IMG/VR virus record: IMGVR_UViG_3300030102_005682
Coordinates: 1-58,146 of that record
Source of the DNA: a virus
Lineage: Duplodnaviria; Caudoviricetes
DNA length: 58,146 nucleotides
Direction: 5' to 3' (one strand)
Translations under genes and position numbers: made by a program
Notes under the pieces: model-generated
Told to the model about the DNA's origin: nothing
What the model saw: the letters and a program-made list of their open reading frames with translations, nothing else
The model's database searches: none
Shown here: positions 1-57,324 of the stretch, one piece after another
Layout of the letters: each line of letters starts with the position of its first letter
How positions within the stretch are numbered: position 1 is the first letter of the stretch

Positions 1-558
1 CAATGAGTGCTCTGACTTGCTTCAAGTTAAATTAAAAAACGCAGATAAAACTGTAGATAATTACGGTGCTTTCGTAGCTGAGGATATTTATATGCAGCTT
101 ATAAATTTAGCTAAAGTTACAAACGAGCCTTTAAATAAAGTGTTTCATGAATATGGTCATGTGCCTGGAGGTTGGTTGAAGTTAGACTATGTTGACAGAG
201 CTTTGAAAAGATACAAGGAGGAAAGAAACTTATTTGATTATACAGATATGGTCATGGAATATAATAAACAAAAGCCACAGTGTAAGTTAGAGGTGTTGAT
301 AGTTGATGAGGCTCAAGACTTATCTTACATACAGTGGCAGATGATAAACAACATGAAAGATCAGGTAGAAAGGGTTTATATAGCTGGAGATGATGATCAA
401 GCCATATTCAAATGGTCAGGTGCACAGCCTGATTTTTTAATAAAATTAGAGGGAAAGAGAGAAATACTAAATCAATCATATAGAGTGCCAATAGCAGTGC
501 ATAGAGTGGCAAATAGTTTAGTGTCAAGGATAGATAATAGGGTGCCAAAAGAATACAT
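1..558. repeat. Left copy of imperfect terminal direct repeat (matches 57589-58146)
   Basis: Colinear without indels; about 42 substitutions in 558 nt by manual codon comparison. Confidence 0.95.
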
Positions 559-1249: not shown

Positions 1250-3162
1250 ATGAATTTAATTGGATACTACCAGAATACAAAGAAGAAAGGATTGAGCCCT
1301 ACATGAGCAACCAAATACCAATGTTTCAACCACCAAGTGAATGGTTGCCACCTGAGAGCATTCCTAATTTAAGTGATGCAAAAGAAATAGCAGTAGATTT
1401 AGAAACAAGAGATGAAAAAATAAAAGAGTTAGGACCTGGTTGGGCTACTGGAGAAGGAGATGTTATTGGTGTAGCTGTGGCTGTGGAGGGTTGGAAAGGT
1501 TATTTTCCTTTGAAACATCCTGGTGGTGGTAACTTTGATGAAAAAATATTTTATAGAAATTTTAAAAAATTAATGTCTTTGCCAAATCGTAAAATTTTTC
1601 ACAATGCAATGTATGACGTGGGTTGGCTAAAGCAAAAAGATATTCAGGTAAATGGTAATTATATTGATACAATGATTGCAGCTCAAATTATTGATGAGAA
1701 TCGTATGGGTTACTCTCTCAATGCTGTTGCTAAAGATTACCTGGGTGAAAAGAAAAACGAAAATTTATTGTATGAAGCTGCAAAAGAATGGGGTGTTGAT
1801 CCAAAAGGTGAGATGTTTAAACTCCCCGCTCAGTTCGTAGGACCCTATGCAGAACAAGACGCTGACCTGACTTTACGTTTATGGCATCGTTTAGAATCAG
1901 AAATATATAAACAAGATCTAGTTTCCGTCTTCTCTCTTGAAACCAATATACTTCCTGCGTTGATAGAGATGAAGTGGAGAGGCGTGCGGGTTGACACCAG
2001 TCGTGCTACTCAAATTAAAGAGAATCTTTTGGAAGAAGAGAATGCCCTCCTTACAAAAATAAAATCTATTTCAGGAGTTTCTGTTGATGTTTGGGCAGCA
2101 CGATCCGTCGCCAAAGCCTTTGATGCTATGGGTATACCTTACAATAGAACTGAAAAAGCAAAAGAGCCAAAGTTTGATAAAAATTTTCTAGCCACACATA
2201 ATAGTGATCTTGCCAAGCTTGTAGTTCAGACTCGTGAGATAAACAAGGCCAGGACCACATTTATTGACACAATTATGAAACATCAAAAGAACGGTCGTAT
2301 ACATGCAGAGATACATCAAATGAAATCTGATGTAGGAGGCACAGTGACCGGTAGATTTTCCATGAGCAATCCAAACTTACAACAGATACCTGCTCGTAAT
2401 GAAAAAATAGGTCCTATGATTAGAAGTTTATTTATACCTGAGGAGGGAGCGAAGTGGGGTTGTTTTGATTACAATCAACAAGAGCCCAGACTTGTGGCTC
2501 ACTATGCAGCTATAACCAGGAATGGCCTGGAGGGCGCTGATAAAGTTATTGATGGTTATAATAGTGACCTGGACTTTCATGGCACCGTGGCTGAAATGGC
2601 TAACATTGATCGTAAGATTGCAAAGACAATTAACCTAGGATTGTTTTATGGTATGGGTAAAGGTAAATTAAAAAGTCAATTAGGATTAAATGATGAGCAG
2701 GCTGATGAGTTATTTAAAACTTATCATAGTAGAGTTCCTTTTGTAAAACAGCTCACGGACCAAGCGTCAAAGTCTGCACAAGAAAATGGTTTTGTTAGAA
2801 CTTTACTTGGACGTAAGTGTCGTTTTGATTTGTGGGAGCCAAACAGTTTCGGTATTCATAAACCATTGAACAGGGACCAAGCGACAAAAGAACATGGAAA
2901 AAATATTAGAAGAGCTTTTACATACAAAGCGCTCAATAGATTAATACAAGGCAGTGCAGCTGACATGACCAAGAAAGCAATTTTAGATTTATATAAAGAA
3001 GGGATAGTCCCGCACATTCAAGTTCATGATGAGTTAGACTGTTCTTTTGACTCTGAGATCCAAGCAAAGAAGATTGAGAAGCTCATGGTTGAATGTGTTA
3101 ATTTAAAAGTTCCAGTAAAGGTAGATTGTGAAATTGGCGATAATTGGGGAGAAATCAAGTAA
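1246..3162 (+). CDS. polA: Family A DNA polymerase with 3'-5' exonuclease domain
   Basis: Exo motifs DLET, HNAMYD, YAEQD; polymerase motifs TGRFS, DYNQQEPR, RKIAKTINLGLFYG, IQGSAAD, VHDE. Start could be 1303. Confidence 0.96.
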   Translation: MNEFNWILPEYKEERIEPYMSNQIPMFQPPSEWLPPESIPNLSDAKEIAVDLETRDEKIKELGPGWATGEGDVIGVAVAVEGWKGYFPLKHPGGGNFDEKIFYRNFKKLMSLPNRKIFHNAMYDVGWLKQKDIQVNGNYIDTMIAAQIIDENRMGYSLNAVAKDYLGEKKNENLLYEAAKEWGVDPKGEMFKLPAQFVGPYAEQDADLTLRLWHRLESEIYKQDLVSVFSLETNILPALIEMKWRGVRVDTSRATQIKENLLEEENALLTKIKSISGVSVDVWAARSVAKAFDAMGIPYNRTEKAKEPKFDKNFLATHNSDLAKLVVQTREINKARTTFIDTIMKHQKNGRIHAEIHQMKSDVGGTVTGRFSMSNPNLQQIPARNEKIGPMIRSLFIPEEGAKWGCFDYNQQEPRLVAHYAAITRNGLEGADKVIDGYNSDLDFHGTVAEMANIDRKIAKTINLGLFYGMGKGKLKSQLGLNDEQADELFKTYHSRVPFVKQLTDQASKSAQENGFVRTLLGRKCRFDLWEPNSFGIHKPLNRDQATKEHGKNIRRAFTYKALNRLIQGSAADMTKKAILDLYKEGIVPHIQVHDELDCSFDSEIQAKKIEKLMVECVNLKVPVKVDCEIGDNWGEIK

Positions 3163-3255
3163 ATTAAATCGGTTTTAAGGACCGTACAGGGGTGTTTTAG
3201 ATGTGCCCGTGTATGATTGCATTCGGAAAAAAATTAAGAAAATAACTAATTAGGA

Positions 3256-3288
3256 CTTGTAATTACATTATGAGATAATATATAATTA
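3256..3288 (+). promoter_or_regulatory. Sigma70-like promoter of the RAMP/array operon
   Basis: TTGTAA (3257)-N18-TATAAT (3281); same CTTGTAATT-N14-TATATAATTA frame as 52923-52955. Confidence 0.7.
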
Positions 3289-3319
3289 GTTATAAACAGA
3301 AAGTAGAAAGGAGATCGAC

Positions 3320-3397
3320 ATGGAATATACAATACCAAGTTGGATCGAACTAATATTAATACAGAACGAGGAAATGGAGAGTGAATGCTCAGAGTAA
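3320..3397 (+). CDS. 25-aa acidic peptide (MEYTIPSWIELILIQNEEMESECSE)
   Basis: GAAAGGAG RBS directly after the promoter; below ORF-track cutoff. Confidence 0.5.
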   Translation: MEYTIPSWIELILIQNEEMESECSE

Positions 3398-3450
3398 TAA
3401 TCGGTTGTTGCATTGCTATTGCCATCTTCGTATGGATGGGATGGTTGTAA
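3385..3450 (+). CDS. 21-aa hydrophobic peptide (MLRVIIGCCIAIAIFVWMGWL)
   Basis: GGAG upstream; single TM-like stretch; TAATG coupling to next gene. Confidence 0.45.
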   Translation: MLRVIIGCCIAIAIFVWMGWL

Positions 3451-3611
3451 TGACAGACACGGGTAAATACAAATCGGTAGCGGTAAAGAAACCAAGCTAC
3501 CAAAAACTCAAAAGCATGGCTGAACAAGATTACAGATCTGTTGCTAGCTTTATAGAGTTCTTAGTTGACAAGGAAGCTGAAGAAAGGAGAAAGTCAAATG
3601 CCAACAAGTAA
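3450..3611 (+). CDS. Ribbon-helix-helix (CopG/Arc-like) DNA-binding protein
   Basis: YKSVAVKKPSYQKLKSMAEQDYRSVASFIEFLV has the beta-helix-helix RHH pattern; coupled ATG at 3450 preferred over 3381. Confidence 0.65.
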   Translation: MTDTGKYKSVAVKKPSYQKLKSMAEQDYRSVASFIEFLVDKEAEERRKSNANK

Positions 3612-4230
3612 AAAGAAAGAGCCAGAGAATATTCAAGTACCTGGAATAAAACTACAAGACTGCGTAATCACAGTGAAGGGGAGTTCACCTTTAATCTGTA
3701 ACAAGTGGTCAGAAAAAGCAAAACAAGAAATCAGAGATAAGCAGATGAAAATAGCTAAAGCTGCAGGTAGAGAAGCGAAGGATCCTGAAAAGTGTTTTAA
3801 CGATTCTTTGTATAAGATGCCTGATGGTAAGGGTTATGGTTTTCCTGCAATTGCATTTAAAGCAGCTGCGGTTAACGCTTGCTCTCACATTGAGGGTTTA
3901 ACAAAAGTCTCTGCACGTGGATCATTTCACATACCTTGTGATCTTATTCCTATTAAGGGTAAGCCAATCATGAGAGAGGATATGGTTCGTGTAGGTATGG
4001 GCGCTGCTGATCTTAGATACAGAGGTGAGTTTACAGATTGGGAAGCTAGTATTCCTGTTAAGTATAACTCTAACGCTTGGTCAATTGAACAGTTGATCAA
4101 CGTATTTAACGTTGCTGGATTTGCGTCTGGTGTTGGTGAGTGGAGACCACAGAAGAATGGTAACTTCGGTATGTTCTCAGTCACTGAGGTTCAAAAGATG
4201 GAATATAATGAGGAGGTAAAAATTGCCTAG
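3598..4230 (+). CDS. Stand-alone RAMP/Cas7-like RNA-binding protein (candidate effector)
   Basis: ITVKGSSPL, YGFPAIAFKAA, RYRGEFTDW and Gly-rich loop GFASGVGEWRPQKNGNFGMF occur in RAMP order; AAGGAG RBS before ATG 3598. Confidence 0.7.
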   Translation: MPTSKKKEPENIQVPGIKLQDCVITVKGSSPLICNKWSEKAKQEIRDKQMKIAKAAGREAKDPEKCFNDSLYKMPDGKGYGFPAIAFKAAAVNACSHIEGLTKVSARGSFHIPCDLIPIKGKPIMREDMVRVGMGAADLRYRGEFTDWEASIPVKYNSNAWSIEQLINVFNVAGFASGVGEWRPQKNGNFGMFSVTEVQKMEYNEEVKIA

Positions 4231-4732
4231 AGTAAAAGTAGTAAGTGATAAAGAGTACGTTTGGAGACAAGGTACAAGATATTCAGTGGAGGCACAGGTT
4301 GCTGGAGAGCATCTTGAGTCTTTGGAATACAAGCACGGGGCTCTCACCCCAGACCTGGTTGTGCGGGAGGCTAGAAAGAAGAGTTCACCTCTCCACCCAT
4401 GCTTTACGTGGGACGATACAAAAGCAGCTGAGAGCTATCGAAGGTTTGAGGCCAGGAAACTAACAGGATCAGTCCTCGTCGTGACTCAGCAAACAACTGA
4501 ACCTGTTCGTGCTTTTCATAGTGTTCCTATAACCATAACGTCTGACGATGAGCAGGCTCGAGGTTATGTTTCACTGGACGTGGCGATTGCAGACGAAGGT
4601 CATAGAAATCATTTGTTGCAACAAGCGTTTCGTGACTTAGCGGCCTGGAGAAATAAATATGCGGAGTTGAAAGAACTTCATAGTATTTTTTCCCAGGCAG
4701 ATCGCCTTGTGGAGAAATATTCTATTAGATAA
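4223..4732 (+). CDS. Uncharacterised partner protein coupled to the RAMP-like gene
   Basis: GGAGG RBS plus TTG overlapping the upstream stop; motif LTPDLVVREARKKSSPLHPCFTWDDTKAAESYR. Confidence 0.8.
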   Translation: MPRVKVVSDKEYVWRQGTRYSVEAQVAGEHLESLEYKHGALTPDLVVREARKKSSPLHPCFTWDDTKAAESYRRFEARKLTGSVLVVTQQTTEPVRAFHSVPITITSDDEQARGYVSLDVAIADEGHRNHLLQQAFRDLAAWRNKYAELKELHSIFSQADRLVEKYSIR

Positions 4733-4743
4733 TAGAATGATTG

Positions 4744-4773
4744 GTAGCGGAGGTAATACTCCGCTACTATTTT
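4744..4773 (+). terminator. Hairpin; weak intrinsic terminator or processing site
   Basis: GTAGCGGAG-gtaata-CTCCGCTAC followed by TATTTT. Confidence 0.55.
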
Positions 4774-4788
4774 AGAAAGGAAAGAAAG

Positions 4789-4893
4789 ATGGAAAAATAT
4801 AATTTTGATCACATAATTAAAATTTTATTAACTAAAGCAGGATGGATAAGGGTTCCTTTATACCTTCCAAGAAAGGAAGAAAATGGTAAGTAA
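4789..4893 (+). CDS. 34-aa hypothetical protein
   Basis: GAAAGGA RBS; MEKYNFDHIIKILLTKAGWIRVPLYLPRKEENGK. Confidence 0.5.
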   Translation: MEKYNFDHIIKILLTKAGWIRVPLYLPRKEENGK

Positions 4894-5116
4894 AGTAGGA
4901 TGGTCGATGGAAGAAGAGTTACAGGAATATAGAGAGTTATATGATAAAGTAGAAGAGGCTGTTATTGCATTAAAAGCAGCTCAAGAGTTAAAAGCTTTTC
5001 TTTATCTTGATCCTCTGCAACAAGAACATTTTAAAGTTACAATTCATGATCTTGAAAGTTTCTTGTCTGTGATAGATGAGGCTTCGACTGTCGAGATTGA
5101 TCAGTCGCCTGTATAG
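4883..5116 (+). CDS. Acidic helical hypothetical protein
   Basis: RBS-like GAAAGGA; the stop codon overlaps the first base of the array. Confidence 0.65.
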   Translation: MVSKVGWSMEEELQEYRELYDKVEEAVIALKAAQELKAFLYLDPLQQEHFKVTIHDLESFLSVIDEASTVEIDQSPV

Positions 5117-5537
5117 GCAGGAGAGGTGGGGCTGGGTGCGTTGTTATGAGGTAGTTTACGGCAGGAGTGGTGAGGTCGGGTACGTTCTGGTGGTAGCAAG
5201 GCGTGTTGTGGCAGGCTAGGTGAGTTATGGTGAGGTGAGATTAGTTCAGGAGTGGCAGGTGTGGTGAGTTGTGTCTCGGTGGGTTACGATTGCGGACAGG
5301 TTGAGTCAGTTCGGGGCATGGTGTTGTGAGGCGTGGATTGGTGAGGCAGGCCAGGTATGCCCAGGTTTGGTATGATCCGGACGGTTTAGGCAAGGCAGGC
5401 GGGGCGAGGTCGGGCTAGTTGCGGAGGGGTAGGTCACGGCAGGCGTGGTAAGTTTGAGCGAGGTATGGTCGGTCTTGTTGCGGCAGGTGGGGTGAGGCGC
5501 TGTCAGGTGAGGAGTGGTATAGGCATGTTGAGGCTGG
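5116..5537 (+). ncRNA. Array of nine GGCA-delimited units of GGY-NN pentamers (candidate guide-RNA array)
   Basis: GGCAGG at 5116, 5160, 5210, 5254, 5345, 5394, 5438, 5482; variant GGACAGG at 5294; terminal GGCTGG at 5532. Four units are exactly 4+8x5=44 nt. Repeat structure is certain; RNA function is inferred. Confidence 0.75.
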
Positions 5538-5550
5538 AAAGGAGTTTTGA

Positions 5551-5682
5551 ATGGATGATAAAATGAAAGCGTTGCAGGTTGTAAATGATTACATAAGATT
5601 TGACCGTGCATCATCGAACGTGACCGCAGCTTGGGAGACTGTGTTACGTTACATAAAGAGTTTGGAAAAGAGTGTAAAATAA
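5551..5682 (+). CDS. 43-aa hypothetical protein
   Basis: GAAAGGAG RBS immediately after the array; MDDKMKALQVVNDYIRFDRASSNVTAAWETVLRYIKSLEKSVK. Confidence 0.6.
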   Translation: MDDKMKALQVVNDYIRFDRASSNVTAAWETVLRYIKSLEKSVK

Positions 5683-5887
5683 TTATACTTGTAAGTGGAT
5701 TCTTTATCCCACTTAGATCCAAGAAAGCCGACACCTGGCTGGCCTAGTAGTGTTAACGAACCCCCTGGTGGTGTGACTGATGGAGAGACATCTTTCAGAA
5801 AGTCAAGAAAACAATTTTAAAAAAATCTTTTGAGGTTGGGATTGTAATTTTATATATTGGAGTTTCGACACTAAATAGGAGGTCCGA

Positions 5888-6016
5888 ATGGAAAACTTAG
5901 AAGAGAAATATCAAGAAGCGTTGCAAGCGATAGCTTACCTGCACAATGAGTTACTAGCTGTAAAGCATTGTCAGTGTGGCGATGATGAAGCAACAGAAGA
6001 GGATGACGAGGCCTAA
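5888..6016 (+). CDS. 42-aa acidic hypothetical protein
   Basis: AGGAGG RBS; MENLEEKYQEALQAIAYLHNELLAVKHCQCGDDEATEEDDEA. Confidence 0.6.
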   Translation: MENLEEKYQEALQAIAYLHNELLAVKHCQCGDDEATEEDDEA

Positions 6017-6228
6017 TACAGGCCTTCGTGTCCCTGCTCGAAGTATTTATTTTTTAAGTGCCTGTCCCAGAAAGACTTTCCATTCGCTACAATGATGTTC
6101 CACTCTCGATGACTAAAGCGCTCTGTTGAGCCATCTTTGTATTCCACCTCGTAGACCATGTCATGACCTCCTGAGTCAGTCTGTTGTTCAAACACCCTTA
6201 GCTGCTTAATTATATCTTTTAGCTTCAT
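6013..6228 (-). CDS. Hypothetical protein
   Basis: Last gene of an overlapping minus-strand cluster. Confidence 0.65.
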   Translation of the reverse strand: MKLKDIIKQLRVFEQQTDSGGHDMVYEVEYKDGSTERFSHREWNIIVANGKSFWDRHLKNKYFEQGHEGLY

Positions 6229-54739: not shown

Positions 54740-56242
54740 TTGAAATACGAGAAATTTAGAGAGATATTTAAAGGTTTAGATAGAGCCTATGGTGTCTATT
54801 ATAAAGGTGAAACAAAGGAGAATGGAAAGCTTTCTGGTAAAGCCTACATTAAAAAAGAGCCTTTGTTTGATCAATACTATGATGCTCATCTAGACGGTAA
54901 GGACCCTGGACTAGGGGTAATTCCTATCATGGACGACTCCAATTGTTTTTGGGGTTGCTGTGATATTGATAAGTATCCTCTAGATTTCAAAGCTATAATA
55001 AAAAAATTAAGAAACAAAAATATTCCTATGATTGTGTGTCGTTCTAAGAGTGGCGGGGCACATCTATTTCTTTTTACTAAACAGCCTGTGCCTGCATCTT
55101 TAATGAGAACTAAGTTATCAGAGATAGCTGCCTCTTTAGGATATGCAGATTGTGAAATATTTCCAAAGCAAGAAGAGATAAAAAAAGATAGAGGAGACAC
55201 AGGTAATTTTTTAAACCTACCTTATCACGGTGGTGATGAGAGTATGAGATATGCCATGGATGATGAGGGTAATTCATTATCTGTGGAAGAGTTTTATCAA
55301 CTATATGATAAATATGTTTTGACTCCAAAAGAACTAAAAGATGTAAAGGTTGTTGAAGAGTCAAGAGAGTTAAAGGATGGTCCACCTTGTTTGGAAACTT
55401 TGATGGCTGAGGGTTTCCCTGAAGGTACAAGAGACAATGCTTTGTATCAATATGCAGTGTATGCAAAGAAAGCTTTTCCTGATCACTGGCAAGATAAGAT
55501 ATCTGAGTTCAATCATAAATATATGGACCCAGCTTTATCTGTTAACCAGGTAAATAAAACAATCAGACAGCATGAAAAGAAAGAGTATGCGTACAAATGT
55601 AAAGATCAACCAATGTGTTCACATTGTAATTCTAATTTATGTCGTCAAAGACAGTTTGGTATTGGTGTAGATTATGAACATAAGTTTGGTGATTTAACGA
55701 AGTATCAATCCGATGAATCTGTTTGGTTTCTAAACGTTGATGGTAGGCGTTTAGAGTTAACCACAGATAGCCTGTTCGAGCAGTCTAAGTTTCGAAAAGC
55801 TTGTATGGATAATTTGAATGTACTCCCAAATCCATTGAGTAATAGAGACTGGACTGCTCGTATTCAGCAGCTACTACAATCAGTCGAAATAATAGAAATG
55901 CCCAAAGAGGTTAGAAAGGAAGGTCGCTTTGAACAACATCTCGATAATTTCATTAATGATCAAGGTAAGGCACTCAATATTGAAGAAATTCTTATTGGAA
56001 AAGCCTGGTCAGAAGACGGAAAAATCTACTTCAAAATGTCTTCACTAGAAGAATATTTAATGAAGAAGAGGTTTACTGAGTTTACTACAACTCAGATGGG
56101 AGCACGTATCAAACAAATAGGTGGTGGCGATACTCGTAAGAGAGTTCGTGGTCGCTTGGTTTACATGTGGTACGTGCCCGACCAAGAGAAAGAAGAGGTA
56201 AACTTAGACTTACCTTCTATGAAGGAGGAGATACCATTTTAA
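54740..56242 (+). CDS. AEP-superfamily primase with PriCT-like and Cys-cluster regions
   Basis: WGCCDID, RSKSGGAHLF, EIFPKQ, GNFLNLPY, PPCL, EGTRDNAL; GGGAG RBS favours TTG 54740. Confidence 0.8.
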   Translation: MKYEKFREIFKGLDRAYGVYYKGETKENGKLSGKAYIKKEPLFDQYYDAHLDGKDPGLGVIPIMDDSNCFWGCCDIDKYPLDFKAIIKKLRNKNIPMIVCRSKSGGAHLFLFTKQPVPASLMRTKLSEIAASLGYADCEIFPKQEEIKKDRGDTGNFLNLPYHGGDESMRYAMDDEGNSLSVEEFYQLYDKYVLTPKELKDVKVVEESRELKDGPPCLETLMAEGFPEGTRDNALYQYAVYAKKAFPDHWQDKISEFNHKYMDPALSVNQVNKTIRQHEKKEYAYKCKDQPMCSHCNSNLCRQRQFGIGVDYEHKFGDLTKYQSDESVWFLNVDGRRLELTTDSLFEQSKFRKACMDNLNVLPNPLSNRDWTARIQQLLQSVEIIEMPKEVRKEGRFEQHLDNFINDQGKALNIEEILIGKAWSEDGKIYFKMSSLEEYLMKKRFTEFTTTQMGARIKQIGGGDTRKRVRGRLVYMWYVPDQEKEEVNLDLPSMKEEIPF

Positions 56243-57324
56243 AACATTTAGATTTATTTTCAGGTATAGGTGGGTTTAGTCTTGGTTTAGAAGAAGCAGG
56301 ATTAGTTGATACGGTAGCTTTTTGTGATTGGGAGGCTTACTGTCAAGAAGTTTTAAGAAAACATTGGCCAGGCGTGCCAGTGTATGGAGATATAAAGGAG
56401 CTAACACATGAAAGACTCAGAGCAGATGGAATTAATTCCATCGACATCATCACAGGAGGATACCCCTGTCAGCCTTTCTCAGTCGCTGGACGACAAAAAG
56501 CTGAAAAGGATCCGAGACATCTCTGGCCAGAGTATTTTAGGCTTGTCAAAGAACTCAGGCCAACTTGGGTCATTGGAGAAAACGTTAGTGGACACGTTAA
56601 ACTCGGTCTCGACACCGTACTCGAGAACTTGGAGAGTGAAGGTTACTCAACAAGGACGTTTAGTATTTCAGCTTCGAGCATCGGTGCCAACCATCAACGG
56701 GAAAGGATCTGGGTTATTGCCCACGCCAACGACACAGGAGATAGAACATCACGACATCAATTTAACAAAGACAGGGAGAAGATTATCAAAGGACGGGAAG
56801 AGCAGTCACAGTTTGAACTTAGCAGATACGGTGAGGGTTTGGAGAACTCCAGATGCTCACAGTGGCCGTGGAGCTTCGAGCAAGGAAAGAATGAAGATGA
56901 AATTAGAGAAGGGTATGCCAATCAGCCTGAACGATCAGGTGGCACATCCGAACTTGATGTGGCCGACTCCAAGAGCATCAGCAGCGATGGCAGAGGACAT
57001 CAAGAATATACAGAAGCGGGGCACGGAGAGGGGCAGGTTAGAGGAGAGAGTGGCTTTAAGATGGCCGACTCCAACTACAAACGACAGCAAGAACAACGGG
57101 GGAGCATCTCAACTACGAGCAGGCAGGAGAGGTTTTGGAAAGAATCTGAATGCCGTAGTAGCGCAGAGATCTCAAAATGGTGGGAGTCTGAACCCGACGT
57201 GGGTCGAGTGGCTCATGGCTTACCCAAAAGGGTGGACAGACTTAAGTGCTTAGGTAATGCAGTTGTACCTATTATTCCTTATCTGATCGGTAAAAGTATT
57301 CTAGAGACATACGACATTGAGTAA
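56236..57324 (+). CDS. C5 cytosine DNA methyltransferase, alpha chain (motifs I-VIII and X)
   Basis: DLFSGIGG, GGYPCQPFS, GENV, HQRERIW, LKCLGNAV; start proposed at ATT 56236 (ORF track gives 56167). Confidence 0.9.
   Translation: MLKHLDLFSGIGGFSLGLEEAGLVDTVAFCDWEAYCQEVLRKHWPGVPVYGDIKELTHERLRADGINSIDIITGGYPCQPFSVAGRQKAEKDPRHLWPEYFRLVKELRPTWVIGENVSGHVKLGLDTVLENLESEGYSTRTFSISASSIGANHQRERIWVIAHANDTGDRTSRHQFNKDREKIIKGREEQSQFELSRYGEGLENSRCSQWPWSFEQGKNEDEIREGYANQPERSGGTSELDVADSKSISSDGRGHQEYTEAGHGEGQVRGESGFKMADSNYKRQQEQRGSISTTSRQERFWKESECRSSAEISKWWESEPDVGRVAHGLPKRVDRLKCLGNAVVPIIPYLIGKSILETYDIE
56408..57253 (+). CDS. Overlapping +1-frame methyltransferase beta chain (TRD-like repeats and motif IX)
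   Basis: AAGGAG 7 nt before ATG; four (L/W)(P/R)TP repeats; LNPTWVEWLMAYPKGWT. Confidence 0.75.
   Translation: MKDSEQMELIPSTSSQEDTPVSLSQSLDDKKLKRIRDISGQSILGLSKNSGQLGSLEKTLVDTLNSVSTPYSRTWRVKVTQQGRLVFQLRASVPTINGKGSGLLPTPTTQEIEHHDINLTKTGRRLSKDGKSSHSLNLADTVRVWRTPDAHSGRGASSKERMKMKLEKGMPISLNDQVAHPNLMWPTPRASAAMAEDIKNIQKRGTERGRLEERVALRWPTPTTNDSKNNGGASQLRAGRRGFGKNLNAVVAQRSQNGGSLNPTWVEWLMAYPKGWTDLSA

What the first reader, a model, noticed from the sequence alone, without database searches (positions are those of the whole stretch)
5116..5537. Two-level grammar of the array: GGCA delimiter plus about 8 pentamers with constant GGY and free NN
Seen: units of 44, 50, 44, 40, 51, 49, 44, 44 and 50 nt. Unit 3 reads GGCA GGCTA GGTGA GTTAT GGTGA GGTGA GATTA GTTCA GGAGT. 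Unit 7 reads GGCA GGCGG GGCGA GGTCG GGCTA GTTGC GGAGG GGTAG GTCAC. Positions 1-3 are mostly GGT/GGC/GTT/GGA, positions 4-5 vary, and no two units share an NN string. A slippage satellite would be homogenised and a coding repeat would have period 3. Inference: each unit is a separate guide and the 4-nt GGCA phase break marks a processing or filament boundary.
Basis: seen in the sequence. Interest (0 to 1): 0.9.

Follow-up and report, generated by a model that had tools for sequence, protein, structure and literature searches.

The report
Phage VIPR guide-RNA array

Summary
Window 5116-5537 is 46% G. It has a strong 5-nt period with a -1 phase break at each GGCA, and units of 44, 50, 44, 40, 51, 49, 44, 44 and about 51-56 nt.

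It is the guide (vrRNA) array of a VIPR system, as described in three 2026 bioRxiv preprints.
- The 221-aa gene upstream (3565-4230) matches the solved SUSP1 Vipr protein (profile E 1.2e-13). It keeps the GG-binding G-loop and the thumb arginine, and folds as a Cas7/Csm3-like RAMP.
- Over 55 regular units from 14 related arrays, pentamer positions 1-3 read G, G/T, not-G. Positions 4-5 are free.
- Within one guide family the NN positions are the most conserved. Between families they are the most variable.
- Read by the published one-base-skip rule, unit 6 (5345-5393) spells HIHLIPRYK, the catalytic motif of HIT-domain genes. It matches exactly in 2 viral and at least 117 metagenome stretches.
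- A relative's guide matches motif X of C5 DNA methylases in at least 120 viral contigs.

Unlike SUSP1, the units have no 3' tail and abut directly. This fits the "staggered" arrays that the preprint mentions. Transcription and processing are not shown. Verdict: a new member of a known kind.

The parts
3257..3286 (+). promoter-like site upstream of the operon
   Evidence: TTGTAA-18-TATAAT, 10 of 12 matches, the best of 12 consensus sites in 3150-6150. This is a consensus match only.
3381..3611 (+). small ribbon-helix-helix-like ORF (76 aa) ahead of vipr; whether it belongs to the system is unknown
   Evidence: Weak Pfam RHH_5 match (E 0.0037, below the cut-off) and weak NCBIfam VapB match (E 0.0044).
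3565..4230 (+). vipr: RAMP-fold guide-binding protein (221 aa from TTG 3565; 210 aa from ATG 3598)
   Evidence: Profile A2 against PDB 36pp_D 'SUSP1 Vipr protein' gives E 1.2e-13 over 23-194/5-188. The single sequence gives E 5e-5, with GVGEWRP aligned to GVGDWRP and R153 to R138. AF2 pLDDT 93.1. Foldseek top hits are Csm3/Cas7 of type III and VII, E 2.7e-6, prob 1.00. phrog_4652. 3449 representative clusters at E <= 0.001.
4223..4732 (+). vap-like accessory gene (169 aa); its start overlaps the vipr stop
   Evidence: Adjacent to vipr in 25 of 26 related loci. phrog_15946. AF2 pLDDT 82. The N-terminal domain resembles winged-helix proteins only weakly (Foldseek E >= 0.47; VIA Z about 6). A long C-terminal helix spans 124-169.
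4744..4775 (+). hairpin plus T-run after vap (terminator-like)
   Evidence: Read directly: 9-bp stem 4744-4752/4759-4767, then TATTTTAG. The consensus scan did not list it.
4883..5116 (+). 77-aa ORF whose stop codon TAG overlaps the first GGCA
   Evidence: No family match. Role unknown.
5116..5159 (+). unit 1 (44 nt): GGCA + 8 pentamers
5160..5209 (+). unit 2 (50 nt): GGCA + 6 pentamers, one extra base, 3 pentamers. Its family is found in the most arrays (13 of 14).
5210..5253 (+). unit 3 (44 nt)
5254..5293 (+). unit 4 (40 nt), followed by a degenerate junction GGACAGG
5294..5344 (+). unit 5 (51 nt), with one extra base in the middle
   Evidence: register read by hand.
5345..5393 (+). unit 6 (49 nt): its NN string spells H-I-H-L-I-P-R-Y-K, the HIT catalytic motif
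   Evidence: Exact matches in 2 viral contigs, both in frame in PF01230 genes. At least 117 metagenome stretches also match; 89 of the 92 held matches carry HxHxH in frame. The family is present in 9 of 14 arrays.
5394..5437 (+). unit 7 (44 nt)
   Evidence: Its 6 viral hits lie in mixed frames and look like chance.
5438..5481 (+). unit 8 (44 nt), present in 11 of 14 arrays
   Evidence: One lead: an exact in-frame match VNCDMRFA in S-formylglutathione hydrolase genes of 7 of 55 genomes of one marine genus.
5482..5537 (+). unit 9 (about 51-56 nt). It runs into the ribosome-binding site of the next ORF (ATG 5551).

Best explanation
Window 5116-5537 is the vrRNA array of a VIPR (Viral Interference Programmable Repeat) system of an uncultivated marine phage.

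Proposed mechanism: the array is transcribed on the + strand, together with or just after vipr (3565-4230) and a vap-like gene (4223-4732). Vipr protomers bind one per GGYNN pentamer. They hold G, G/U and the non-G base, and present the two free bases. Those free bases pair with double-stranded DNA, skipping every third target base. The skipped base is usually the codon wobble position. The bound gene is silenced. Each GGCA-delimited unit of 8-10 pentamers is one guide. The 4-nt junction shifts the register by -1 and separates neighbouring guides.

Shown here: Vipr homology and fold, the grammar, the selection pattern on NN, and exact in-frame matches to conserved enzyme motifs in other elements.

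Taken from the preprints on the SUSP1 system, not tested here: filament formation, DNA pairing and silencing.

Inferred: transcription, cutting or filament ending at the junction, and the role of the 169-aa protein.
For: (1) Protein.
- Profile hit to the solved SUSP1 Vipr, E 1.2e-13.
- The G-loop E192-W193-R194 aligns with D177-W178-R179, and R153 with R138. The preprint reports these residues as contacting G1, G2 and Y3. R153 and R194 are invariant in 50 homologues.
- The model has pLDDT 93, and its best fold matches are Csm3/Cas7.

(2) Grammar.
- 55 regular distinct units were used, out of 89 distinct and 110 units in all, from 14 arrays.
- Position 1 is G 89%. Position 2 is G 69% or T 25%. 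Position 3 is G 2%. Positions 4 and 5 carry 0.13 and 0.14 bits.
- The same xGCA + n x GGYNN layout, with spacings of 39-64 nt that are all 4 mod 5, is seen in high-GC relatives whose vap is only 33-44% identical.

(3) Selection.
- Within 14 multi-member guide families, 10 of 256 NN columns vary against 48 of 384 GGY columns (Fisher p 1.3e-4).
- Between 28 families the mismatch by position is 0.18, 0.41, 0.51, 0.70, 0.68.
- All variants of a family keep one NN string.

(4) Code.
- NN dinucleotide usage (264 NN) fits sense codon positions 1-2 of this phage's genes, r 0.81. The antisense reading gives -0.02, and other frames give 0.41 or less.

(5) Targets.
- Unit 6 matches HIT genes.
- A relative's 54-nt guide matches at least 120 viral stretches. 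All 85 held matches read RY[KN]Q[MI]GNAVTV, and 3 of 3 ORFs tested are PF00145.
- A second family hits a C5 methylase at THIGNAVPVE.
- A third matches 14 of 16 bases at VDDYETW in 14 of the same contigs.

(6) No self-target.
- The best scores are 11-13 of 16-18, no better than shuffled guides.
- The window has no HIT gene.

(7) Structure.
- The RNA folds no better than shuffles, z +1.83. That suits an RNA held single-stranded.

(8) Whole-unit change.
- A near-identical strain has one extra 44-nt unit and a 5-nt loss.
- The 14 arrays share 18 of 34 unit families, in different orders.
Against: - No direct evidence of transcription, strand or processing. Three short contigs from RNA libraries of one seawater study cover 4913-5172, 5482-5752 and 5736-5949. 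Contigs show neither strand nor ends, and DNA carry-over is not excluded.
- There is no conserved 3' tail or pseudoknot such as caps SUSP1 vrRNAs. A 44-nt unit is pentamers throughout.
- Units have 7-10 pentamers in the window (8-12 in relatives). That is at or below the published 9-16.
- The residue equivalent to SUSP1 H17, which contacts G1, is Asn46 here.
- Three units (2, 5, 9) carry one extra base inside, which the published rule does not cover.
- Only one of the window's nine units (unit 6) has a convincing target. Units 7 and 8 gave 6 and 10 viral hits in mixed frames, about the chance level for 16 specified bases.
- An 18-base control pattern from a relative also gave one chance-like hit.
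- The 169-aa protein's resemblance to winged-helix DNA binders is weak.
Confidence: 0.9

Rival explanations
1. It is a VIPR array, but the units are not separate guides. The whole 420 nt acts as one long RNA coated by Vipr, with the GGCA junctions as kinks and not as ends. Alternatively, only some units are functional.
For: No processing site or ribozyme is recognisable. The preprint says only the ribozyme-interspersed and single-vrRNA architectures were confirmed by sRNA-seq, not the staggered one (passage). Units 2, 5 and 9 have internal register slips.
Against: Exact target matches span exactly one unit: 9 of 9 and 10 of 10 pentamers. Relatives gain, lose and reorder whole units. The junction is conserved across distant relatives.
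Confidence: 0.07
2. It is a sponge or wrapping RNA for a sequence-specific ring or filament protein with no guide function. Examples of the kind are TRAP with its (G/U)AG repeats and CsrA with its GGA sites. On this reading it titrates a host or phage RNA-binding protein.
For: The 5-nt spacing of a short G-rich motif resembles TRAP sites (recalled knowledge). The RNA is predicted to be unstructured.
Against: The NN positions would then be free to drift. In fact they are the most conserved positions within a family. They also spell in-frame conserved protein motifs found exactly in many other contigs. The neighbouring protein is a Vipr homologue.
Confidence: 0.01
3. It is a DNA-level element: a replication origin with iterons or R-loop priming, G-quadruplex DNA, or a Rho loading site on the C-rich antisense transcript.
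For: It lies in the replication module next to a family A DNA polymerase gene. It has an extreme G/C skew. The 169-aa neighbour weakly resembles winged-helix proteins, including RctB domains.
Against: None of these explains a non-G position 3, NN conservation within families, steps of 5 nt in unit length, or exact codon-phased matches to foreign genes. A quarter of pentamers have GT rather than GG, which breaks G-tracts.
Confidence: 0.01
4. It is a decaying slippage satellite without function.
For: It is non-coding and repetitive.
Against: Tandem Repeats Finder finds no homogenised repeat. The grammar is kept next to vipr/vap in 24 of 26 related loci, and the other two end before the array position. 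This includes relatives at 28-38% Vipr identity.
Confidence: 0.01

Closest known systems
VIPR type II system of Escherichia phage SUSP1 (bioRxiv 10.64898/2026.04.26.720920 and 10.64898/2026.04.26.720927; PDB 36pp)
   Same: A small RAMP-fold Vipr protein with the G-loop (D/E)WR and the thumb Arg. An accessory gene lies directly downstream. The guides are GGYNN pentamer repeats on the same strand. NN read with a one-base skip matches coding sequences in codon phase. There is no self-target.
   Different: SUSP1 vrRNAs are about 100 nt, with 9-16 repeats followed by a conserved ~40-nt pseudoknot tail. Here the units are 40-56 nt, made of pentamers only, with no tail, and they abut at a 4-nt junction. 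Protein identity is low (single-sequence E 5e-5, C-terminal third only). H17 of SUSP1 is Asn here. The predicted targets are catalytic motifs of widespread enzyme families, not one satellite.
'Staggered vrRNA arrays' mentioned in the same preprint (legend of fig. S18, read)
   Same: The legend says that individual vrRNAs derive from positions overlapping by 1 nt, and that the end of one marks the start of the next. This fits a -1 phase break at each junction and the lack of tails.
   Different: I could not see the figure or data S4, because supplements are closed. The identity of the architecture and the VIPR type (I-VII) are therefore not established. The text states that sRNA-seq confirmed the other two architectures, not this one.
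Class 1 CRISPR-Cas backbone (Cas7/Csm3 on crRNA)
   Same: RAMP fold (Foldseek prob 1.00 to Csm3 and type VII Cas7). One protomer binds per fixed step of guide RNA. Guide length varies in whole steps.
   Different: The step is 5 nt and not 6. Three of every five guide bases are fixed and read by the protein. There are no long direct repeats, and no Cas5, Cas6, Cas8 or Cas10 was noted in the operon. The system is phage-borne.
TRAP bound to (G/U)AG repeats in Bacillus trp leader RNA (recalled, not from a call)
   Same: A protein oligomer reads a short G-rich triplet repeated about every 5 nt in single-stranded RNA.
   Different: TRAP is a closed 11-mer that regulates its own RNA, and the spacers carry no information. 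Here the spacers are the information.

Membership tests
VIPR system | A Vipr protein: a small RAMP homologue (RRM core, G-loop, thumb) related to described Vipr proteins | tested here: met
   Profile against PDB 36pp_D 'SUSP1 Vipr protein', E 1.2e-13. AF2 pLDDT 93. Csm3/Cas7 are the best fold matches.
VIPR system | GG- and Y-contacting residues reported for SUSP1 Vipr (R138, D177, W178, R179; H17) | tested here: met
   R153, E192, W193 and R194 align with R138, D177, W178 and R179, with D replaced by E. The H17 position is Asn46, so 4 of 5 are kept or conservatively replaced.
VIPR system | Tandem GGYNN (YNNGG) repeats, at least 4 in a row, with GGY conserved and NN variable, in the intergenic DNA beside vipr | tested here: met
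   The array starts 886 nt after the vipr stop, on the same strand.
VIPR system | An accessory (vap) gene next to vipr | tested here: inconclusive
   A coupled 169-aa gene is present in 25 of 26 related loci. Its equivalence to vap1-6 could not be checked because supplements are closed. The winged-helix likeness is weak.
VIPR system | Guides match natural DNA targets when NN is read with a one-base skip, mostly in codon phase | tested here: met
   Unit 6. Relatives' guides. NN usage fits codon positions 1-2. Units 7 and 8 are unresolved.
VIPR system | No self-targeting at 80% NN match or more | tested here: met
   The five regular guides score at most 75% in the window, no better than shuffled guides.
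VIPR system | vrRNAs are expressed, processed and co-purify with Vipr | not testable with these tools
   Only three short contigs from RNA libraries touch the two ends of the array. They show no strand, no ends and no protein binding.
VIPR type II (SUSP1 clade) | A conserved ~40-nt structured 3' tail (pseudoknot) after each repeat tract | tested here: not met
   44-nt units consist of GGCA + 8 pentamers. There is no excess folding, z +1.83. Rfam finds nothing.
CRISPR-Cas | An array of identical direct repeats of 23 nt or more, separated by spacers | tested here: not met
   No tandem or direct repeat is reported in 5116-5537. The units share only the 6-nt GGCAGG and a biased first two pentamers.

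The most novel reading that the evidence does not exclude
In this marine phage lineage VIPR is not aimed at one satellite. It is aimed at invariant catalytic motifs of enzyme families that many rival elements carry. The motifs are the HIT triad HIHLIPRYK (unit 6 of this window) and motif X and a second site of C5 DNA methylases (relatives' guides). One guide would then silence a whole gene family across diverged competitors, for instance stripping rivals of protective DNA methylation. One common guide (unit 8) may even address a host chromosomal gene, S-formylglutathione hydrolase. In addition, a bare 4-nt xGCA junction would be enough to separate guides, with no tail and no ribozyme.
Probability: 0.35. 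Interest if true: 0.65.

Novelty: new member of a known kind. Interest (0 to 1): 0.5.

Why it matters
VIPR was described only in 2026, and all experiments so far are on the tailed type II system of one coliphage family. This locus and its 13 related arrays offer three things.
- A natural series of the tail-less, abutting architecture, for which no expression data are reported in the main text I read.
- Selection evidence from natural variation that NN carries the information. This evidence does not depend on the published experiments.
- Concrete target predictions, namely the HIT triad and C5 methylase motif X. These words do not occur in the main text of two of the three VIPR preprints; the third was not checked. 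If confirmed, they would show guides aimed at protein motifs that cannot mutate away. They would also point to a contest over DNA modification between marine phages.

For the scan, it shows that a reader without tools can recover this grammar from sequence alone.

Tried and rejected
Early ideas, dropped once the Vipr match appeared:
- A TRAP-like or CsrA-like sponge RNA.
- An immunoglobulin-switch-like R-loop origin.
- G-quadruplex DNA.
- A Rho loading site on the antisense strand.
- Iterons for a winged-helix initiator.

The reasons are given under the rival explanations.

Searches that gave nothing useful:
- Rfam at E <= 10.
- blastn of 4700-5900 against phage records.
- A first literature search on pentanucleotide repeats.
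- Pfam, NCBIfam and PDB sequence searches for the 169-aa protein.
- Foldseek for the 169-aa protein, with no match at E <= 0.001.

Target searches that look like chance:
- Unit 7: 6 viral stretches, none in the sense frame. There was 1 one-mismatch hit in 55 genomes of the marine genus.
- Unit 8 in viral contigs: 10 stretches. Four read ANRISQFT on the antisense strand, but in proteins that share nothing else.
- The first 9 pentamers of a relative's 64-nt guide: 1 hit in a 65% GC contig, with only 2 of 6 further positions matching.
- Unit 6 in the marine genus: 30 two-mismatch hits against 24 for the reversed control.

Other limits:
- Scanning all 38 NN patterns against the held target loci is partly circular, because those loci were fetched with some of the same patterns.
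- RNA runs: the middle of the array has no cover in the three RNA libraries. That is no evidence either way.
- Tools not used: complex prediction and the protein-atlas search.
- Supplements of the preprints (figs S16-S18, data S3 and S4) could not be seen. They may already list this architecture's type, or methylase and HIT targets.
Full report
**What is there.**
- The window is a 58,146-base virus record, about 98% complete, with 38% G+C.
- Between a 77-aa ORF (4883-5116) and a 43-aa ORF (5551-5682) lies a 422-nt non-coding stretch. It has G 46.4% and C 12.6%, against 21.5% and 16.8% in the window.
- GGCAGG occurs 8 times here and 10 times in the rest of the window.
- Autocorrelation against 500 shuffles peaks at lags 5, 10, 15 and 20 (z 4.3-6.1). 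It then peaks at 24-44 (z 6.5 at 44) and at 49. This is a 5-nt period whose phase slips by -1 once per unit.
- The period-5 signal is confined to about 5120-5530. No second tract of this kind exists in the window.
- Tandem Repeats Finder and Rfam report nothing here.

**Relatives.**
- Searching viral contigs with the two upstream proteins gave 26 loci.
- 24 of them carry a G-rich GGCAGG array downstream. The other two (L013, L020) end about 300 nt after the second gene, before the place where the array would start.
- The two genes are adjacent in 25 of 26 loci. L009 begins too late to show the first gene.
- Unit lengths are 44, 49/50, 54, 59/60 and 64, that is, steps of 5.
- High-GC relatives whose second protein is only 33-44% identical show very regular pentamers (GGCAA GGCGA GGCTT ...). 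Their junctions read xGCA, and their spacings are 39-64 nt, all 4 mod 5.

**Identification.**
- The 221-aa protein has no Pfam or NCBIfam match. It belongs to phrog_4652 and to a large family, with 3449 representative clusters at E <= 0.001.
- A profile of 50 homologues hits one solved structure, 36pp_D 'SUSP1 Vipr protein', at E 1.2e-13.
- That name led to three bioRxiv preprints of 2026 on VIPR systems.
  - From the first I read the outline, the results, the discussion and four methods sections, plus searched passages.
  - From the second I read the outline and two results sections.
  - From the third I read the outline and searched passages.
- They describe a phage-borne RAMP protein, Vipr, that polymerises one protomer per GGYNN repeat along a guide RNA (vrRNA). 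It holds GGY and presents NN. NN pairs with double-stranded DNA while every third target base is skipped. The result is transcriptional silencing of competing mobile elements.
- A fourth preprint recovers VIPR arrays by their 5-nt period (passages).

**Membership.**
- The model of the 221-aa protein has pLDDT 93.1. Its best Foldseek matches are Csm3/Cas7 subunits of type III and type VII complexes (E 2.7e-6, prob 1.00).
- In the alignment with SUSP1 Vipr, GVGEWRP lies on GVGDWRP and R153 on R138. D177, W178, R179 and R138 are the residues that the structure preprint reports to hold G1, G2 and Y3.
- The H17 position is Asn46 here.
- The pentamer logo over 55 regular units reads as follows:
  - position 1: G 89%;
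  - position 2: G 69%, T 25%;
  - position 3: T 59%, C 24%, A 15%, G 2%;
  - positions 4 and 5: nearly free, 0.13 and 0.14 bits.

**A test from natural variation.**
- I grouped the 55 units into 28 families (same length, at most 20% different).
- Between families, mismatches rise along the pentamer: 0.18, 0.41, 0.51, 0.70, 0.68.
- Within the 14 families that have several members, the order is reversed. Variable columns number 6, 18, 24, 7 and 3 of 128 at positions 1-5. That is 48 of 384 at GGY against 10 of 256 at NN (Fisher p 1.3e-4).
- Every variant of a family keeps the same NN string.
- So NN is what selection holds once a guide exists, while G/T at position 2 and T/C at position 3 drift. 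This is what the published code predicts.

**The code and the targets.**
- The 264 NN dinucleotides of the 28 families are used like codon positions 1-2 of this phage's own genes: r 0.81 and log-likelihood -1004 bits. The uniform model gives -1056 bits and the antisense reading -1114 bits.
- Unit 6 of the window, read with one skipped base, is CAnATnCAnTTnATnCCnCGnTAnAA, that is H-I-H-L-I-P-R-Y-K.
  - It matches exactly in 2 viral contigs, both in frame in HIT-domain genes (PF01230, E 1e-21 and 1e-22).
  - It also matches in at least 117 metagenome stretches; the scan stopped at its limit. Of the 92 matches in the loci held, 89 carry HxHxH in frame, and in 77 the longest open frame is the sense frame.
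  - The window has no HIT gene.
- A 54-nt guide found in three relatives (L021, L023, L024) matches at least 120 viral stretches; again the limit was reached.
  - All 85 held matches read RY[KN]Q[MI]GNAVTV.
  - 75 of the 85 lie in sense open frames of 300 nt or more.
  - 3 of 3 ORFs tested are C5 DNA methylases (PF00145, E 5e-60 to 5e-73).
- For scale, 16-base patterns gave 6 and 10 stretches in the same collection. A 20-base pattern should therefore give about 0.03 by chance.
- A second guide family hits a methylase at THIGNAVPVE. The motif names here are recalled.
- A third matches 14 of 16 bases at VDDYETW in 14 of the methylase-bearing contigs.
- The window carries its own C5 methylase (56140-57324). 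Its motif reads LGNAVVP, and the relatives' guides do not match it at 80% or more.
- No guide of the window matches the window itself better than shuffled guides do.

**What stays open for the window's other guides.**
- Units 7 and 8 (16 specified bases) gave chance-like viral hits.
- In genome contigs, unit 8 gave 108 stretches spread over all frames. The largest cluster, about ten, reads VNCDMRFA in S-formylglutathione hydrolase genes (TIGR02821, E 1e-119).
  - Five of these hits carry Colwellia titles in the visible part.
  - 7 of 55 genomes of that genus have the exact string.
- Units 6 and 7 are at chance level in that genus.
- I rate this a lead on target or host, not a finding.

**Architecture.**
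- A 44-nt unit is GGCA plus eight pentamers, so there is no room for the ~40-nt pseudoknot tail of SUSP1 vrRNAs.
- The RNA folds no better than its shuffles: z +1.83, and 97 of 100 shuffles fold at least as well.
- The legend of fig. S18 of the first preprint speaks of 'staggered' arrays, in which vrRNAs derive from positions overlapping by 1 nt and the end of one marks the start of the next. That fits the -1 break.
- I could not see the figure. The text says sRNA-seq confirmed the other two architectures.
- Exact matches span all pentamers of one unit: 9 of 9 and 10 of 10.
- A near-identical strain in a public run has one more 44-nt unit at 5482 and lacks 5 nt at 5388-5392.
- The 14 arrays hold 34 unit families, of which 18 are shared, in different orders.
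- These facts support one unit = one guide.

**Expression.**
- A promoter-like site (10 of 12) lies at 3257-3286.
- A hairpin with a T-run follows the second gene (4744-4775, read).
- Three short contigs from seawater RNA libraries of one study cover 4913-5172, 5482-5752 and 5736-5949 at 90-99% likeness.
- They show no strand and no ends, and DNA carry-over is possible. This is a weak hint at most.

**The second gene.**
- The 169-aa protein (pLDDT 82) has an N-terminal domain that resembles winged-helix proteins only weakly, followed by a long C-terminal helix.
- The preprint says that vap genes of types II, VI and VII encode predicted DNA binders.
- Equivalence is not shown.

**Verdict.**
- The thing is a VIPR vrRNA array of the tail-less kind, beside its vipr and a vap-like gene.
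- It is a new member of a kind described in 2026.
- The earlier notes I saw are all on this same window. I did not ask whether the scan met such arrays on other DNA.
- The searches behind 'not in print' for methylase or HIT targets are (main texts only). The second preprint was not checked, and supplements were closed.

Noticed in passing
window 56140-57324 (+): The phage has its own C5 DNA methylase (PF00145, E 1.8e-44 over model positions 2-182). A long Gly/Glu/Ser/Gln-rich insert lies before motif X, which reads LGNAVVP. Relatives of this phage carry guides against motif X of other methylases (RYKQMGNAVTV, THIGNAVPVE).
   Followed up: partly
window 5438-5481; L302, L313, L319, L331, L354 and others: The NN string of unit 8 matches exactly and in frame (VNCDMRFA) in S-formylglutathione hydrolase genes of 7 of 55 genomes of one marine gammaproteobacterial genus, with about 37% G+C like the phage. 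This is a possible host or host-gene lead. With 16 specified bases it could be chance.
   Followed up: partly
run X4 laid on window 5388-5392 and 5482-5487: A near-identical strain has an extra 44-nt unit inserted at a GGCAGG junction and one pentamer fewer in unit 6.
   Followed up: partly
L017, L018, L022 arrays; L051, L055, L072, L082 and others: A 44-nt guide of relatives matches 14 of 16 bases at VDDYETW. The match lies near the start of short open frames, and in 7 of 14 cases the same open frame also holds the GNAV motif. Two guides therefore converge on one gene.
   Followed up: partly
phage records H1-H34: Vipr homologues (34-40% identical for the actinophage records; 25% and 35% for the other two) are annotated as hypothetical proteins in 27 Mycobacterium and 5 Gordonia phage records, one cyanophage and one Pseudomonas phage. 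I did not look for their arrays.
   Followed up: no
window 4744-4775: A 9-bp hairpin followed by TATTTTAG lies between the vap-like gene and the 77-aa ORF. If it terminates, the array would need its own promoter.
   Followed up: no
window 4883-5116 and 5551-5682: Two small ORFs (77 and 43 aa) frame the array exactly. The stop of the first overlaps the first GGCA, and the ribosome-binding site of the second follows the last unit. Neither has a family match.
   Followed up: no
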